A DNA stretch of 64,000 nucleotides from a virus, in UHGV virus genome UHGV-1364441. One strand, 5' to 3'. Shown here piece after piece: positions 31,364 through 44,252 of the stretch (its first letter is position 1; each line of letters starts with the position of its first letter). The notes below the pieces were generated by a model. The model had not been told where the DNA came from. It did not search any database and was given only the letters and a program-made list of their open reading frames with translations. The translations under genes and the position numbers were made by a program.

Positions 31364-31836
31364 TGTTTTTTAGCTCTCTGCGTGAAGGTGTAAACCCGAC
31401 GTTTGATATGTGGAACGGTAGGAACAGGAAGACAGGAACTTTCAATAACTCCTTGCTCCTCCAGCGATCGCACCGCCCGCAAGAACTGCGACGTGTCGCC
31501 GCCAAACTGGCGGGCATAGGTGCTGCCGTTATGAAGTATTTGAGCTATTACCCGAGCTTTTGTCTGGCTGTCACGATATGCGAATAGCCGCACGGCCTCT
31601 TCTGGCGCAATCGCTAACTGATAGCCTTTCCCGGCACGGTGTCGAATGAATCCATGCGCCAGTAGGTTTTTGAGTTCGTTACGAGTGCGAACAGATCCGT
31701 AATCCAGGAAGTGTGGATTGATAACGACTGGCTTAAACCATTCCGTAGGTGCTTTAGCTAATAGAGCTAACAGCTTCCCGGACAATTCTGGATAGGAAGA
31801 CGGGTAACAATTCAGAGATGGGTAATAAGTTTTCAC
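31360..31836 (-). CDS. Hypothetical protein, possible winged-helix DNA-binding
   Basis: 158-aa ORF coupled to dut. Confidence 0.45.
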   Translation of the reverse strand: MKTYYPSLNCYPSSYPELSGKLLALLAKAPTEWFKPVVINPHFLDYGSVRTRNELKNLLAHGFIRHRAGKGYQLAIAPEEAVRLFAYRDSQTKARVIAQILHNGSTYARQFGGDTSQFLRAVRSLEEQGVIESSCLPVPTVPHIKRRVYTFTQRAKKQ

Positions 31837-32177
31837 CGACGCCCCCTTGCCGGATATCGACCTGCATTAGTATCCGGTGCAATAAAGCCGGTAGTGGGGC
31901 GAGTGAAAGCGAGATTAATCTTCTCGACCATAGTGCGATAATTTTCCTGATAGTGGGCCAGGAGTTTTTCGGCGGCAATGATGGTTACTTTCCGGACGTA
32001 GCTTTCTGCTTCCTCCAGATTTCGCCAGTTTTTTTCGAGGGTAAACACAGGGACGGCCTCAAGCCCGGTCATGATGCCGAACACAACGACAGCATGACTG
32101 TTCTTAACACCAGCGGCGAAGGTTACGGTGTAACCATCCACCTTGAAGCGTCTTGATTCCGTGATTTGACTCTGCAA
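31833..32177 (-). CDS. Hypothetical protein (114 aa)
   Basis: First gene after the operator-like site at 32233-32252. Confidence 0.45.
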   Translation of the reverse strand: MQSQITESRRFKVDGYTVTFAAGVKNSHAVVVFGIMTGLEAVPVFTLEKNWRNLEEAESYVRKVTIIAAEKLLAHYQENYRTMVEKINLAFTRPTTGFIAPDTNAGRYPARGRR

Positions 32178-32232
32178 AGCACCCTCCTAAATAGGCGAGG
32201 GTACTTTACAGCAAAGGCGTTAATCTAAAAAG

Positions 32233-32252
32233 ATGTGTTAGAAATTTAATTT
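32233..32252 (+). promoter_or_regulatory. Operator-like motif ATGTGTTAGAAATTTAATTT at the 3' end of the recombinase gene
   Basis: Instance of the recurrent motif. Confidence 0.45.
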
Positions 32253-33279
32253 ACGAATCCATCAGGCGGCTATTAGCCCCCACAGACACGCCACCACGGC
32301 GAAGATACCGCATAAGTGTTTCCGGTTTCTTCCAGGTTCCTTCCTGCATGATCTCCACCATAGACACCTGCTTTTCAGCCATATCAATAGCGGCCCCGAC
32401 GCGTGCACTATGCCCGGTCCACGTCCGGTATCTTCCTTTGTTTGGCGTAGCATCTCTTTTATTCAGCAACACCCAGGCGTCGCTGAATATTTTCTCCATT
32501 GCAGGTGCAGTAAGGGGCGTTGTCGTGATCCTGGCCTTATTGCTACGGTGTATCGGCGGGAACAGCACTGCGTCAGGATGTTCGCGAAGCCCGGAAACAT
32601 CCAGCCAGTCATTCAGCACAGCGGTAGTGCGACGGGAAAGCACCTTATCAAGCCCGGCGGCGGTCGTTATTGTCTTCGTGTGTGAAATATGTAGCGTGAC
32701 AGTGTCACCTGTTTGGTCCAGATCTCCTACACGAATACGCGAGATTTCCGACATACGCATCAGCGTATTGTATGCAACAAAGAGAAAAGCCCGGTTGCGC
32801 AGATCCACCAGCCGTTCTGACCTGGACAACAGGACGTCGAGCAGTTTCAGATCGTCCCACCGCAGCGGTATAGCCTGGCCTGTTCGTTCGCCTTTTTCAG
32901 TTGCCGCTTCGCGCCGGATGCGCCGCATAGCCAGAGAAACACTTTTATCATCCGAAAGTGGCGGAAGGCCACAATGCGAAAGCAGCATGTTCAGCATGGC
33001 GTAGTGCTTATCAATGGTGGTCGAAGCCAGATCGGCATCATGCAGCTGAAGAAAATACTCGCGGGCCATTTCTGGTGAGATCGGAAACCAGGCAAGCTGG
33101 CGAGCGTGACACCAGCGCGCCCAGGAATGAAACACCAAACGGAGGTCGCGCAGAGTATTCGGCGCATAAGCTCCCTGGTCATTCATGAACCGCATAAAGT
33201 TTTCTGCGGCTTCCTGGTACTCTTTGCCAATGTTGCGCAGAAAACCACCGGAACTGCCAGAGATAATTAATTCACTCAT
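32251..33279 (-). CDS. dre: Cre-family tyrosine recombinase, Dre-like
   Basis: 342 aa, colinear with P1 Cre (WFP, LSxxGLP, VSLxMRRIR, YNTL, WxGHSARVGAA, EIMQ blocks); adjacent rox-like site. Confidence 0.85.
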   Translation of the reverse strand: MSELIISGSSGGFLRNIGKEYQEAAENFMRFMNDQGAYAPNTLRDLRLVFHSWARWCHARQLAWFPISPEMAREYFLQLHDADLASTTIDKHYAMLNMLLSHCGLPPLSDDKSVSLAMRRIRREAATEKGERTGQAIPLRWDDLKLLDVLLSRSERLVDLRNRAFLFVAYNTLMRMSEISRIRVGDLDQTGDTVTLHISHTKTITTAAGLDKVLSRRTTAVLNDWLDVSGLREHPDAVLFPPIHRSNKARITTTPLTAPAMEKIFSDAWVLLNKRDATPNKGRYRTWTGHSARVGAAIDMAEKQVSMVEIMQEGTWKKPETLMRYLRRGGVSVGANSRLMDS

Positions 33280-33431
33280 GAAACTATTTAACCTCTATAT
33301 ACAGATGACGCTACGCGAAAAATATAAAAATGACAGGGTAGCTATAAGTTAATTTTCAAGATTCAAGCCTTTGATTCGAGGCACGTATTTTCAGTGATGT
33401 CAATACTGATCATCTACCCATGATTATAGCC

Positions 33432-33463
33432 TAACTTTAAATAATGCCAATTATCTAAAGTTA
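33432..33463. other. rox-like recombination site TAACTTTAAATAAT-GCCA-ATTATCTAAAGTTA
   Basis: 14-bp inverted arms (1 mismatch) around a 4-bp spacer, about 150 bp upstream of the recombinase start; 31/32 identical to the rox site as I recall it. Confidence 0.75.
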
Positions 33464-33634
33464 GAAATTTAGGAATTTTTTTTCTTTCCGCGCAGATGGG
33501 CAATGCATTGCTGGTGTGGGCTTTAAGTTATGCCTGGCAGTTTTTAAGCAGAATTTTCTAAATTGGATGATAAAAAAATGCATCTTGATCCTTTACTCAC
33601 CCTGTTATTCGGCATAGATTTGTCATAGTAATTT

Positions 33635-33652
33635 TATGTTAGAAAACTAAAT
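33635..33652 (+). promoter_or_regulatory. Operator-like motif TATGTTAGAAAACTAAAT about 15 bp upstream of the 33665 start
   Basis: Instance of the recurrent motif. Confidence 0.45.
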
Positions 33653-33664
33653 CGAGTAGGAATA

Positions 33665-34702
33665 ATGAGTAAGAAGTCGATCGAGAAAGAGTACAAACGG
33701 TTCCTGCAAACCGCTGAACGGTGGAAAGAGCTGGTGGTCGCAAACTCTGTTTTCCATGATACCAGTTATTCCGGCGAGGAATTCCGCCATGTTGCACTAA
33801 CACATGATCAGAATGTGCTAGAAGAAGCTGAAAAGTGCCTCACAGAATGGAAAGCCTTTGTTGACTTGTGCCGTAACGCTGACGGCAAAGCGTCTAACAT
33901 TGTTGAGTCTGTATATTCTCCGATCCCATTCATTATCGAGGACACAAATCAAAGCACGCATATTGTTGTGCAAAGCGCGACCACCACCCGCTCATTTACG
34001 CGCGAAAATCTGCTCAAAAAATATGATGCAATTATAAAGAAAAGCCTGAAAAACAAGATATTTTCGCAGATTGTTGGTGCACTTGAAGAAGAGCGCCGTT
34101 TTTTCGCATCAGAACCTGAAGGGGAAGTTTACCGGGCGCGCAAAGATGGATACACAGATGTAGTGCTTACAACAAACATTGAAGGCAGCAATGCTCTGTC
34201 ACGATTCAGGGTAGGCGCACACGGAGCCTTAGTGTTCGCAAAACTTCCGAACACCACAGTGCCCGTTGTTAATAATGTCGGCGAACGTCGCAGCATTACT
34301 ATTTATTCTGGGGTTGAGTCGATACCTTGCGGCCTGCTTGGTGACTTTAGTCTCTATCGCGTTCGCGATCTGGAGAAACACCAACCAAGCTATGTTGCGA
34401 AGTCATACATCTTGCGAAACATCGACATCCGCAATGAGAGCTTAAAGAACAAATCAGCCAAAATGCTTGAGGAAGCCGATCCGGCTATTCGCCATATCAT
34501 TGAGCGTAAAATACAGACAGCACGCGAAGCGATGGCGCGACTGAATAAAATGGATCTGGAGTTGTTAGACGTAATGATGACATCCGGAGATGACCTGACA
34601 GGCATAAAACTGACAGACGCGCGGAAAAGATACGGTAAAACCATAGAAGAACGTTACGGGTTCACTTTCTCCCAAACACAGCACGCCGCTAAACTCTGGT
34701 AA
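33665..34702 (+). CDS. Hypothetical protein; candidate C1-like master repressor (by position only)
   Basis: Sits between the rox site and pacB, convergent with pacB, as c1 does in P1; operator-like motif just upstream; no sequence-level assignment made. Confidence 0.4.
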   Translation: MSKKSIEKEYKRFLQTAERWKELVVANSVFHDTSYSGEEFRHVALTHDQNVLEEAEKCLTEWKAFVDLCRNADGKASNIVESVYSPIPFIIEDTNQSTHIVVQSATTTRSFTRENLLKKYDAIIKKSLKNKIFSQIVGALEEERRFFASEPEGEVYRARKDGYTDVVLTTNIEGSNALSRFRVGAHGALVFAKLPNTTVPVVNNVGERRSITIYSGVESIPCGLLGDFSLYRVRDLEKHQPSYVAKSYILRNIDIRNESLKNKSAKMLEEADPAIRHIIERKIQTAREAMARLNKMDLELLDVMMTSGDDLTGIKLTDARKRYGKTIEERYGFTFSQTQHAAKLW

Positions 34703-34727
34703 TCATAAGCCCCGCATTGCCGGGGCT

Positions 34728-36236
34728 TTATATATCCAGATCTGGCATTTCCACATCTGCAAGAACCTGATCGCGGAAGGTAGCCATTTCAGCGCCGATA
34801 TCTTCATTAGCAGGAACATAGTCCACCAGCATTGTAAAGCAGTAGGTATCCCATCGGTCAGGTGATTTGATGTTCAGCTTTTGCCGCATGTGCTCCTTGC
34901 GCATCATCGCCATCTTCCCTTCTTCATTAAGTAAAAAGGGGATTTTTGACGCTTGCTCTGCCGTTTTAGGGTCACTGTCTATTCGCATACGACCTGACTT
35001 TATGGCATCACGAGCCATAATATTTGCGTAGGCACGCTGGTTAACAAAACGCTCCTTGTCTTTGTTCGAAAACATGGGTTTCCCCCACCGAATCCGTACC
35101 GGATTAGCCCCACGGCGCACCAGCTGCGCACAGGTATCTGAACCAAAACCGTCTGCGTCAACCGCGATTGTAATATTCGGGTATTTATCCGGCGTGCATT
35201 CGTTGTATATAAAGTCAGCAAAAGCCAGCGGGTCCATAGTCCCTGGCATTTCCATTACCTTAAAGTTAACAACACGCCGCTTTTCCCGGTGACCAGACAC
35301 TTTACAGATATTAAGAACTGACTTGTCTCGCCCGTTACCAACGTCAGCAGTAGCCACCCATCCCCAGTTTTTCTCCAACAACACCTTGCGCCGCGCAGCG
35401 CGATCGCATTCATCACGACCAAGCAAATAGCCGTTAATCTCCCGAGGAAACTGACCAAGAACCTTGACCATGTACTCAATAGAATCGCGCCCGCCATATT
35501 CCAGGAGTTTCTGCCTGATGAATTGTGGTGTGACGAACGGTGATTCTTCTGAGTTAAGAACAATTGCTGTCCAGATCCCTTTCGGGTTGTCTGGGGTTTT
35601 AGCTTGAGAATGGTGCGAATCGTAGAAATAACCACTTGGCCTTGTTGGCTGGGATAGCATCAACATTCGGTTATCTTCTTCAGTCAGAGCGCCAGTCATT
35701 ACGCCGATCGCTTTATCAGATATACCTGATGCTTCATCCAGAATTAGAAGCAAATGTGCCGCGTGCTCCCCCGCCAGAGCTTCTTCGTTACCGAGTCGAT
35801 AGCCTTTGCAGAGAACTTCCCAGATCCCCTTTCGAGAGCGTTCATAAAACATGGTGTCAGACAGGACAAAATAGGTCTGTAACCACCCATGACGCTTAAC
35901 GGCATTCGCCCAATACTGTTTAACGTATTTAAATACACCTGTCTTAACCTGACCTATTTTGTTAGCAACAATGATGACACGGGCATCGGGGAACAGAATC
36001 AAATAAATCAGCAACAACATAGCCGTTAGCGACGATTTCCCTGTACCGTGACCAGAGGTAACAGTGGTTCTGCTCCCTTTTTGCTGTACGGACTGGATAA
36101 TCTCCTGCTGCTGGTGGGAGGGAAACATCCCGAATATATCAACAACAGCCTGGGTAAAGTTGTAGCGGTATTTGATTACCATATCGCGCCAGCGTGGATC
36201 GCTGGTGACGCATTTAATCTTGCGCCCACCAGCCAT
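34728..36236 (-). CDS. pacB: Terminase large subunit (PacB-like)
   Basis: Walker A TSGHGTGKSS and Walker B LLILDEASGI; 502 aa; coupled to upstream small-subunit-like gene. Confidence 0.7.
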   Translation of the reverse strand: MAGGRKIKCVTSDPRWRDMVIKYRYNFTQAVVDIFGMFPSHQQQEIIQSVQQKGSRTTVTSGHGTGKSSLTAMLLLIYLILFPDARVIIVANKIGQVKTGVFKYVKQYWANAVKRHGWLQTYFVLSDTMFYERSRKGIWEVLCKGYRLGNEEALAGEHAAHLLLILDEASGISDKAIGVMTGALTEEDNRMLMLSQPTRPSGYFYDSHHSQAKTPDNPKGIWTAIVLNSEESPFVTPQFIRQKLLEYGGRDSIEYMVKVLGQFPREINGYLLGRDECDRAARRKVLLEKNWGWVATADVGNGRDKSVLNICKVSGHREKRRVVNFKVMEMPGTMDPLAFADFIYNECTPDKYPNITIAVDADGFGSDTCAQLVRRGANPVRIRWGKPMFSNKDKERFVNQRAYANIMARDAIKSGRMRIDSDPKTAEQASKIPFLLNEEGKMAMMRKEHMRQKLNIKSPDRWDTYCFTMLVDYVPANEDIGAEMATFRDQVLADVEMPDLDI

Positions 36237-43787: not shown

Positions 43788-44252
43788 TTAATCAAGACAA
43801 ACATATTCCGTGATAGCTTTTATGGCTTCAGCGGCACTGCGCGCCTCAAAGCAGTAGTAACCCGCTTCGGTGAGGCGAGTCATCCAGACGAGTTGTTCGG
43901 GAGTCAGGCGATTTCTCCCATGTTTCATCTCAATGCGCATTCCGTGGTATCCACCGCAAGCAAGGTCTATAGAAAGATCGGGATATCCCTTCTTTTGCCC
44001 TTCTGCCACCATCTTTATTGCCGTCCTTATGCCTCGCAGACCGCCGTTTGGAGTGGCGTGTGTATGCTCATACACATAGCGCATATTGCGATACAACCAA
44101 TCCAGGACGCGTACCTGCTCGTAATGCTCATGGTTCCTTTTTATTAGATCTGGGTTTTTCTCCAGTTCTCTGAGAGCTGCGGCATGTGGGGATGTTTCAG
44201 AATATTCACTGCGACGCCTTCTTTTTCGCGCTATTTTTTCTAACACACCCAT
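43788..44252 (-). CDS. VRR-NUC domain nuclease
   Basis: Q..V..WL ... NGG ... GYPDL ... E.K pattern. Confidence 0.6.
   Translation of the reverse strand: MGVLEKIARKRRRRSEYSETSPHAAALRELEKNPDLIKRNHEHYEQVRVLDWLYRNMRYVYEHTHATPNGGLRGIRTAIKMVAEGQKKGYPDLSIDLACGGYHGMRIEMKHGRNRLTPEQLVWMTRLTEAGYYCFEARSAAEAIKAITEYVCLD

What the first reader, a model, noticed from the sequence alone, without database searches (positions are those of the whole stretch)
32251..33463. Dre-like recombinase with a rox-like site carrying one arm mismatch
The 342-aa Cre-family recombinase sits about 150 bp from a 32-bp site TAACTTTAAATAAT-GCCA-ATTATCTAAAGTTA (14-bp arms, 4-bp spacer). This is the architecture of the Dre/rox system of phage D6 rather than Cre/loxP (13-8-13). 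As I recall the published rox it is a perfect palindrome with TTATTT where this site has TTATCT, so this would be a natural arm variant. An operator-like TGTTAGAAA-type motif (AGTTAGAAATTTAGG) abuts and partly overlaps the right arm, hinting at coupling of recombination-site occupancy and repression.
Basis: partly seen in the sequence, partly recalled or inferred. Interest (0 to 1): 0.65.

Follow-up and report, generated by a model that had tools for sequence, protein, structure and literature searches.

The report
Dre/rox with common natural arm variant
This is the already well-known Dre recombinase and its rox target site on a D6-like phage-plasmid of E. coli, and the one-base difference in the site is a common natural allele, not a new system.

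Summary
ORF 32251-33279(-) encodes a protein 100% identical to phage D6 Dre. The site at 33432-33463 is rox with one T>C change at 33455 (right arm, position 8 from the dyad).

The allele is not rare. The exact 32-mer occurs in 28 PLSDB plasmids (110 canonical) and in 28 of 5,426 complete E. coli genomes (94 canonical), always once per replicon. It travels with a distinct c1-side haplotype: a 130-bp segment only 54-64% identical to D6 and a C1 repressor 89.6% identical to D6 C1. Dre stays 99-100% identical. Left and right modules reassort at rox.

Published data make a functional site likely. Dre's strongest base preferences are at positions 6, 7 and 12, and it recombines sites with 2-4 mismatches per half-site.

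GTTAGAAA is a real dispersed, C1-operator-like motif: 15 copies against 2.25 expected, with strong copies in front of c1 and of ref-, lpa- and repL-like genes. The copy overlapping rox scores 3.5 bits against 22-30 for the strong copies, and D6 lacks it. Operator/rox coupling is therefore unsupported.

A different coupling is predicted. An 11/12 sigma-70 promoter toward dre has its -35 in the rox spacer.

Verdict: already known, low interest.

The parts
32251..33279 (-). dre, Cre-family tyrosine recombinase Dre (342 aa)
   Evidence: 100% identical to D6 Dre AAV84949 and ASR76376. Pfam Phage_integrase 5.3e-17. Catalytic R175, H290, R293, W316, Y325 present. Matches Cre structures at E = 5e-69.
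33432..33463 (.). rox site: left arm 33432-33445, central spacer GCCA 33446-33449, right arm 33450-33463
   Evidence: Unique in the window. Inverted repeat confirmed. Same position as the annotated rox of AY753669.
33455..33455 (.). T>C substitution in the right arm (site position 24; half-site position 8 from the dyad; equivalent to loxP A25)
   Evidence: Alignment to D6. Published rox sequence (PMC4777119). Numbering from PMC4957104 and PMC6486577.
33423..33450 (-). Predicted sigma-70 promoter toward dre: -35 TTGGCA (33450-33445, inside the rox spacer/inner arm), 16-nt spacer, -10 TATAAT (33428-33423)
   Evidence: 11/12 match and the only match of at least 11/12 in 64 kb on both strands, against a simulated mean of 0.75. 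TATAAT is conserved in three divergent left-flank types. The -35 is lost in ACTA-spacer relatives. Prediction only.
33398..33403 (-). Perfect TTGACA hexamer on the dre strand, conserved in all lineages; followed after 18 nt by TCGAAT (33379-33374)
   Evidence: Function inferred (possible second dre promoter).
33459..33476 (+). Weak operator-like motif AGTTAGAAATTTAGGAAT overlapping the right arm
   Evidence: Exact GTTAGAAA core, but 3.5 bits against 22-30 bits for the strong copies. Present only in the window-type right flank.
33464..33590 (.). Variable segment right of rox (window-type flank haplotype 'RB'), linked to the C allele
   Evidence: 54-64% identity to D6, against 94-100% left of rox. 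Linkage shown.
33632..33655 (+). Strong C1-type operator (core GTTAGAAA 33638-33645) just upstream of c1
   Evidence: 28.4 bits, 25.3 leave-one-out. Identical in D6.
32231..32254 (+). Strong C1-type operator (core 32237-32244) between the dre stop and the downstream orf2-orf3-dut operon
   Evidence: 27.8 bits, 24.5 leave-one-out.
33665..34702 (+). c1 prophage repressor (345 aa), a distinct allele from D6
   Evidence: 89.6% aa identity to D6 C1. Distant homologue of P1 C1: 20% identity, E = 6e-8. Annotated as repressor in the D6 and CP057742 records.

Best explanation
The window is a D6-like P1-family plasmid prophage. It carries the Dre/rox system, the D6 counterpart of P1 Cre/lox.

Inferred from the Cre paradigm: two Dre monomers bind the two arms of rox. 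Two rox sites synapse in a Dre tetramer. Y325 exchanges strands within the central crossover region through a Holliday junction. In the plasmid prophage this resolves dimers to monomers and can circularise infecting DNA. These steps were not shown here.

The T>C change at 33455 is a neutral or nearly neutral natural allele of the right arm. Because crossover occurs in the spacer, the allele is inherited with the c1-side flank. That explains its tight linkage to a particular c1/immC haplotype and the reassortment of dre-side and c1-side modules at rox.

The abutting GTTAGAAA is most likely fortuitous. The arm supplies GTTA, the next base G extends the palindrome, and the flank is A-rich.
For: Identity:
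- Dre is 100% identical to D6 Dre.
- rox sits at the same position as the annotated D6 rox.
- Gene order dut-orf3-orf2-dre-rox-c1-pacB-pacA matches D6.
- The closest relative is a 92-kb circular plasmid.

Allele frequency:
- 28 C against 110 T in PLSDB plasmids.
- 28 C against 94 T in complete E. coli genomes, one copy per genome.
- Hosts are E. coli, E. fergusonii, Shigella and Salmonella, from humans, pigs, poultry and a cat.

Intact partners:
- In the C-allele loci that contain the whole gene, dre is intact.
- Dre is 99.4-100% identical in those loci, or about 89.6% in a second lineage (L010, L029).

Linkage:
- C with the window-type flank in all but one of the window-type (RB) IMG/VR loci.
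- T with that flank in L033 and in 1 PLSDB record.
- C with the D6-type flank in 0 records.

Breakpoint:
- 94-100% identity to D6 left of rox, falling to 54-64% immediately to the right.

Tolerance:
- Dre recombines sites with 2-4 mismatches per half-site (PMC10250229).
Against: - No recombination assay exists for this exact allele.
- Position 8 belongs to the three-base patch (8-10) that distinguishes rox from loxP. It is modelled close to Dre R43, P259 and K263 in Cre numbering (PMC4957104, PMC7438526). Some loss of affinity for that arm is therefore possible.
- Many of the plasmids are closely related, so the counts are not independent events.
- Identity breakpoints also occur elsewhere in c1. 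Homologous recombination could therefore have produced the junction at rox instead of Dre.
Confidence: 0.85

Rival explanations
1. Operator/rox coupling. The C1 repressor binds AGTTAGAAATTTAGGAA overlapping the right arm. In the lysogen it therefore competes with Dre for that arm and/or represses a dre promoter.
For: - GTTAGAAA is strongly over-represented: 15 copies against 2.25 expected, and 0 of 100 shuffles reached 15.
- Strong copies lie in front of c1 and of ref-, lpa- and repL-like genes, the same kinds of genes that are C1-controlled in P1.
- The 12-mer GTTAGAAATTTA is shared exactly with the strong copies at 32237 and 55329.
- P1 has operator Oc1e (15/17 to consensus) abutting the -35 of P4cre on the c1 side of lox, annotated 'may control expression of cra and cre'.
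- The motif here lies 9 nt upstream of the predicted rox-embedded -35.
Against: - It scores 3.5 bits against 22-30 bits for the strong copies, and about 84 positions per 64 kb reach that score by chance.
- A replaces the T at -1 that all strong copies and their partner sites have, and the 3' AATTT is absent.
- Two other core-only copies lie inside ORFs (23313, 49738). About 2 chance copies are expected.
- D6 has GTTATAAA at this place. Two other flank types lose the match after GTTAGAAATC or GTTAGAAG. Position +9 varies T/C/A among window-type flanks.
Confidence: 0.12
2. Dre autoregulation through a promoter embedded in rox. The -35 of the main dre promoter lies in the rox spacer, so Dre bound to rox occludes RNA polymerase and limits its own synthesis. 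This does not compete with the best explanation; it adds to it.
For: - TTGGCA-16-TATAAT on the dre strand matches 11/12. It is the only match of that quality in the 64-kb window, against a simulated mean of 0.75.
- TATAAT is kept at the same distance in three left-flank types that otherwise diverge.
Against: - It is purely a consensus match with no transcript data.
- Relatives with spacer ACTA have TTAGTA (3/6) at the -35, and some lose the -10. The feature is therefore not universal.
- A perfectly conserved TTGACA further downstream (33403-33398) may mark the real promoter.
- The -35 match could be a by-product of the spacer sequence.
Confidence: 0.4
3. The C allele marks a degenerating, poorly functional rox in plasmids that no longer depend on Dre.
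For: - One relative (L040, Shigella dysenteriae) combines the C allele, a second arm mutation and a frameshifted recombinase.
- The substitution lies in the rox-versus-loxP specificity patch.
Against: - In the window and in the other C-allele loci that contain the whole gene, dre is intact and 99.4-100% identical to Dre, or about 89.6% in L010 and L029.
- The rest of the site is invariant.
- The allele is present in about 20-23% of GCCA-spacer rox plasmids from many hosts.
Confidence: 0.05

Closest known systems
Dre/rox of Escherichia phage D6 (Sauer & McDermott 2004; GenBank AY753669, MF356679)
   Same: The recombinase protein is identical (342/342). The 14-4-14 site sits at the same distance from dre, with the same spacer GCCA and the same left arm. 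The neighbouring genes are the same (dut, orf3, orf2, dre, rox, c1, pacB, pacA).
   Different: One T>C in the right arm (33455). The 130 bp between rox and the c1 promoter are only 54-64% identical. C1 is 89.6% identical. The base after the right arm is G rather than T, which extends the palindrome to 15 nt.
Cre/loxP of phage P1 (NC_005856)
   Same: Homologous recombinase (E = 5e-69 to Cre structures). The site lies between the recombinase gene and c1, and the inferred role in dimer resolution and cyclisation is the same. P1 also places regulatory elements beside the site: the Oc1e operator with P4cre on the c1 side, and P2coi with a LexA site on the other.
   Different: The arm sequence differs at three positions per half-site, and the asymmetric core is 4 bp rather than 8 bp. 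Cre and Dre are heterospecific according to the literature. No cra, coi, imcA or imcB equivalents are present. The C1 protein is only 20% identical and the operator sequence is different.
Panto/pox (Pantoea sp.; Karimova et al. 2016, PMC4957104)
   Same: The arms are almost identical to rox. Dre and Panto cross-recombine rox and pox.
   Different: pox keeps T at the position that is C here. Its spacer is different, and Panto is only about 52% identical to Dre.
ACTA-spacer rox-like sites of other D6-related plasmids (e.g. S. Typhi pK91 NZ_CP029912, E. coli NZ_CP010131, K. pneumoniae NZ_LR890325)
   Same: Both 14-bp arms are identical to canonical rox, and the locus layout is the same.
   Different: The central spacer is ACTA, not GCCA. 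The recombinase is 90.1% identical to Dre and C1 about 70% identical. The window does not carry this spacer.

Membership tests
Dre/rox site-specific recombination system (phage D6 type) | Recombinase orthologous to D6 Dre | tested here: met
   342/342 identical to both D6 entries.
Dre/rox site-specific recombination system (phage D6 type) | 32-bp target with 14-bp inverted arms TAACTTTAAATAAT and a 4-bp asymmetric core GCCA adjacent to dre | tested here: met
   31/32 identical to annotated and published rox. The single difference is in the right arm.
Dre/rox site-specific recombination system (phage D6 type) | Dre actually recombines this site | not testable with these tools
   Indirect only: persistence with intact dre in many plasmids, and published tolerance of Dre to half-site mismatches.
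Tyrosine recombinase (Cre-type) | Catalytic R-H-R-W-Y residues and the Phage_integrase domain | tested here: met
   R175, H290, R293, W316, Y325 present. PF00589 at 5.3e-17. Full-length match to Cre structures.
Cre/loxP proper | 13-8-13 loxP sequence and Cre-level protein identity | tested here: not met
   The site is rox, not loxP. No second Cre-type site was found in the window. The protein matches Cre only as a homologue, while it is 100% identical to Dre.
P1-family plasmid prophage (D6-like) | P1/D6 gene set (c1, pacAB, lpa, repL, ref, pmgS, darB and others) on a circular plasmid of about 90 kb | tested here: met
   PHROG hits to Lpa-, PmgS- and Ref-like proteins, with repL assigned by position against the D6 record. 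Gene order matches the D6 annotation. The closest records are 87-97-kb circular plasmids.
C1-type operator (D6 specificity) at the rox right arm | Match to the extended ~19-nt consensus shared by copies at C1-regulon promoters | tested here: not met
   3.5 bits against 22-30 bits. The T at -1 and the 3' AATTT are missing.
C1-type operator (D6 specificity) at the rox right arm | Conservation at the orthologous place in relatives | tested here: not met
   Absent in D6-type flanks and truncated in two other flank types.
C1-type operator (D6 specificity) at the rox right arm | Binding of C1 protein | not testable with these tools
   Needs a band-shift or footprint experiment.

The most novel reading that the evidence does not exclude
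rox is more than a recombination site. It would be a small regulatory hub and the exchange point between modules of D6-like phage-plasmids. The -35 of the dre promoter lies in the crossover region, so Dre occupancy autoregulates dre. The c1-side flank, which carries the C allele and a weak C1 site just upstream of that -35, would tie Dre expression to the immunity state. Dre-mediated crossover at rox would shuffle dre-side and immunity-side modules between co-resident plasmids.
Probability: 0.12. Interest if true: 0.45.

Novelty: already known. Interest (0 to 1): 0.2.

Why it matters
It matters little for basic biology. Dre/rox has been characterised since 2004 and is a standard genome-engineering tool.

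The modest practical value is a catalogue of natural rox diversity:
- A right-arm T>C allele at half-site position 8, carried by about one fifth of natural GCCA-spacer rox plasmids with wild-type Dre. This suggests the position is tolerant.
- A natural ACTA-spacer class paired with a 90% Dre homologue.

Both are cheap to test and could inform the design of asymmetric or orthogonal rox sites. The rox-embedded promoter prediction and the D6-type C1 operator consensus are small annotation gains for D6-like phage-plasmids, which are common in E. coli, Shigella and Salmonella.

Tried and rejected
- Rfam scan of 31500-35000 at E up to 1: no match.
- RNA folding of the rox-c1 interval and of the dre leader: nothing beyond the rox hairpin, with z-scores of -1.13 and +0.99.
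- Small ORFs in the rox-c1 interval as possible coi/imcA/imcB equivalents: only unconvincing 20-40-aa ORFs.
- Pfam on C1 and orf2: no family.
- The primary papers could not be read because they are not held: Sauer & McDermott 2004, Gilcrease & Casjens 2018 and Lobocka 2004. I therefore cannot say whether they already describe the D6 operator consensus or a promoter in rox.
- Literature searches for promoter activity of rox and for the GTTAGAAA operator found nothing relevant.
- The target-site sequences lox8, lox11 and lox2 of Jelicic et al. are not in the held text. I could not check whether Dre has been tested on a site with G/C at this position.
- Sequencing error is rejected, because the allele recurs in dozens of independent complete assemblies.
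- The 'one point mutation' noted by Karimova et al. for E. coli DEC12A refers to the Dre protein (99.7%), not to rox.

Full report
**What is there**

The minus-strand ORF 32251-33279 encodes 342 aa. The sequence TAACTTTAAATAATGCCAATTATCTAAAGTTA lies at 33432-33463, 152 bp upstream of its ATG. It is unique in the window even with three mismatches allowed, and no shuffle produced a match. The repeat finder reports 15-nt arms, 93% complementary, separated by 4 nt. No further half-site with two or fewer mismatches exists in the 64 kb.

**Identity**

The protein is 342/342 identical to Dre from both phage D6 records, AY753669 and MF356679. It has the Phage_integrase domain and the catalytic residues R175, H290, R293, W316 and Y325 (residue list from PMC4777119). 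It matches Cre crystal structures over its full length only at the level of a homologue (E = 5e-69).

AY753669 annotates the 32-bp 'region of crossover (rox) site for Dre recombinase' at the equivalent place. Its sequence, and the published wild-type rox, is TAACTTTAAATAATGCCAATTATTTAAAGTTA.

Gene order around it (dut, orf3, orf2, dre, rox, c1, pacB, pacA) is that of D6. The best matches are circular, mostly non-mobilizable plasmids of 87-97 kb from E. coli, Shigella and Salmonella, and the closest is 99.8% identical. The element is a D6-like plasmid prophage with one rox.

**How common is the allele**

Megablast needs an exact 28-mer, and every 28-mer of a 32-nt query covers position 24. Searches with the two 32-mers therefore count the alleles separately.

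| Collection | C allele | T allele (canonical) |
|---|---|---|
| PLSDB plasmids | 28 | 110 |
| 5,426 complete E. coli genomes | 28 (all on plasmids) | 94 (91 plasmid, 3 chromosomal) |

There is always one copy per genome. The allele is thus carried by roughly a fifth of natural GCCA-spacer rox replicons, from humans, pigs, poultry, a cat and wastewater. It is not a sequencing error or a private mutation.

**Linkage and mosaicism**

A scan of IMG/VR with the core TTTAAATAATGCCAATTAT gave 30 loci, one of them a chance hit (L015).

- Left of rox there are three flank types, with Dre at 98.8-100%, 94.2% or about 89.6% identity to the window.
- Right of rox there are at least four flank types, with C1 at about 99-100% (95.7% in L010), 89.5%, 81% or 70% identity.
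- The C allele sits on the window-type right flank in all but one of the loci with that flank. The T allele on that flank occurs only in L033 and in one PLSDB record.
- The C allele on the D6-type flank was not found.
- The same left type pairs with different right types, and the reverse is also true.

Against D6, identity is 94-100% through dre and up to rox. It drops to 54-64% for about 130 bp immediately right of the site, returns to 91-100% over the c1 promoter and the first part of c1, and is 75-83% over the rest of c1.

This is what crossover within the rox spacer would produce. The right arm, including position 24, travels with the c1 side, and modules are exchanged at the site. Other breakpoints exist in c1, so homologous recombination is not excluded. 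This step is inference.

**Is the variant site functional?**

This was not testable here. The indirect evidence favours function.

- dre is intact wherever the whole gene is present. It is 99.4-100% identical in most C-allele loci and about 89.6% in a second lineage, L010 and L029.
- All other 31 positions are invariant.
- Counting from the dyad as in Rec-seq, the change is at right half-site position 8. Dre's strongest preferences in vitro are at positions 6, 7 and 12, although it prefers the canonical base nearly everywhere (PMC6486577).
- In a 13 x 13 cross-reactivity screen, Dre recombined sites with 2-4 mismatches per half-site (PMC10250229).

On the other side, position 8 belongs to the three bases (8-10) that distinguish rox and pox from loxP. 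These face Cre K43, R259 and G263, which are R, P and K in Dre (PMC4957104, PMC7438526). pox keeps T there. Some weakening of binding to that arm is therefore possible. Only one relative (L040) shows signs of decay: the C allele plus a second arm mutation, beside a frameshifted recombinase.

**The operator-like motif**

GTTAGAAA occurs 15 times in the window against 2.25 expected, and none of 100 shuffles reached 15. Eleven of the twelve copies used to build the matrix share an asymmetric consensus of about 19 nt, T(A/G)T-GTTAGAAA-(A/T)(T/C)TAATTT. Several also have an inverted partner copy.

They are intergenic. They lie in front of c1 and of genes for Ref-like, Lpa-like, PmgS-like and repL-like proteins, and in front of the orf2-dut operon. 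D6 has the same copies at orthologous places.

In the P1 record, ref and c1 carry annotated C1 operators. The window's C1 is a distant homologue of P1 C1, at 20% identity and E = 6e-8. The motif is therefore very probably the operator of the D6-type C1 repressor. This is inference from regulon parallels, and I found no description of it in the searchable literature.

The copy that overlaps rox is different.

- With a matrix built from the twelve copies, eleven score 22-30 bits leave-one-out (the copy at 44237 scores 0.4). The rox copy scores 3.5 bits, a value reached about 84 times per 64 kb of random sequence.
- It has A instead of the T at -1 and lacks the 3' AATTT.
- Two other core-only copies lie inside ORFs, which fits the roughly two chance copies expected.
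- D6 has GTTATAAA at this place. Two other flank types keep only GTTAGAAATC or GTTAGAAG.
- The arm supplies GTTA, and the following G extends the palindrome.

In its favour, the 12-mer GTTAGAAATTTA is shared with two strong copies. P1 also has a near-consensus operator, Oc1e (ATTGCTCTAATAATTCT), abutting the -35 of promoter P4cre on the c1 side of lox, annotated as possibly controlling cra and cre. I put C1 binding at this copy at about 0.12.

**A different coupling**

The promoter scan found TTGGCA-16-TATAAT on the dre strand. The -35 is at 33450-33445, inside the rox spacer and inner arm. The -10 is at 33428-33423, just outside the left arm. It is the only match of at least 11/12 in the whole window, against a simulated mean of 0.75. 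The TATAAT is retained in three otherwise divergent left-flank types.

If active, Dre bound to rox would sit on its own promoter. There are caveats. It is a consensus match only. ACTA-spacer relatives have TTAGTA at the -35. A perfectly conserved TTGACA at 33403-33398 may mark another, or the main, dre promoter.

**Other natural rox diversity**

A sensitive search found about 50 plasmids with 30/32 matches. The three intact examples examined have both arms identical to rox but the central spacer ACTA. They sit next to an intact Dre homologue 90.1% identical to Dre, and where c1 is intact its product is about 70% identical to the window's C1. A fourth example (L040, 28/32) combines the ACTA spacer with the decay described above.

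**Verdict**

The Dre/rox reading and the 'natural arm variant' reading are right. The operator-coupling hint is not supported by the sequence evidence, although it has a P1 precedent.

The system is already known and the allele is common in public plasmids. Interest is low (0.2). The useful residue is a small catalogue of natural rox variation and two testable annotation predictions: a promoter embedded in rox, and the D6-type C1 operator consensus.

Noticed in passing
L037 1601-1632, L038 1601-1632, L039 1601-1632 (NZ_CP029912, NZ_CP010131, NZ_LR890325): A natural rox-like class with both arms identical to rox but central spacer ACTA instead of GCCA. It occurs in about 50 PLSDB plasmids, next to an intact Dre homologue 90.1% identical to Dre. 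This may be a natural heterospecific site/recombinase pair.
   Followed up: partly
window, core starts 7333(+), 7353(-), 16162(+), 16799(+), 16819(-), 20542(+), 20562(-), 32237(+), 33638(+), 38069(+), 41787(-), 41943(-), 43193(-), 54129(-), 55329(+): A dispersed asymmetric motif of about 19 nt, T(A/G)TGTTAGAAA(A/T)(T/C)TAATTT, some copies in inverted pairs. All are intergenic, in front of c1 and of ref-, lpa-, pmgS- and repL-like genes among others. It is very probably the operator of the D6-type C1 repressor and was not found in the searchable literature.
   Followed up: partly
window 33423-33450 (-): A near-consensus sigma-70 promoter (TTGGCA-16-TATAAT) toward dre, with its -35 inside the rox spacer. 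It is the only match of at least 11/12 in the window. The -10 is conserved across three flank types, but the -35 is lost in ACTA-spacer relatives.
   Followed up: partly
window 33476-33483, and the equivalent place in L001, L006, L029, L037: All four divergent right-flank types keep a run of 6-9 T starting 11-13 nt after the right arm of rox, although the surrounding sequence is unrelated. Unexplained.
   Followed up: no
window 33398-33403 (-): A perfect TTGACA on the dre strand, conserved in every lineage examined including the ACTA-spacer ones. It is followed after 18 nt by TCGAAT and may be a second dre promoter.
   Followed up: no
window 33576-34702: c1 is itself mosaic relative to D6. The promoter/operator and the first ~110 nt of the gene are 98-100% identical, while the rest of the gene is 75-83% identical (C1 protein 89.6%).
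   Followed up: partly
L040 (CP026821, Shigella dysenteriae) 420-1632: A decaying locus: a frameshifted Dre homologue next to a site with the ACTA spacer, the same right-arm C, and an extra left-arm change (TAGCTTT...).
   Followed up: partly
E. coli complete genomes: Three of the 94 canonical rox copies lie on chromosomes rather than plasmids. These may be integrated D6-like elements or assembly joins.
   Followed up: no
window 33464-33475 and 33553-33563: An 11-nt inverted repeat, GAAATTTAGGAA / TTTTCTAAATT, brackets the variable segment between rox and the c1 promoter. The predicted fold of the region is not significantly stable (z = -1.13).
   Followed up: no
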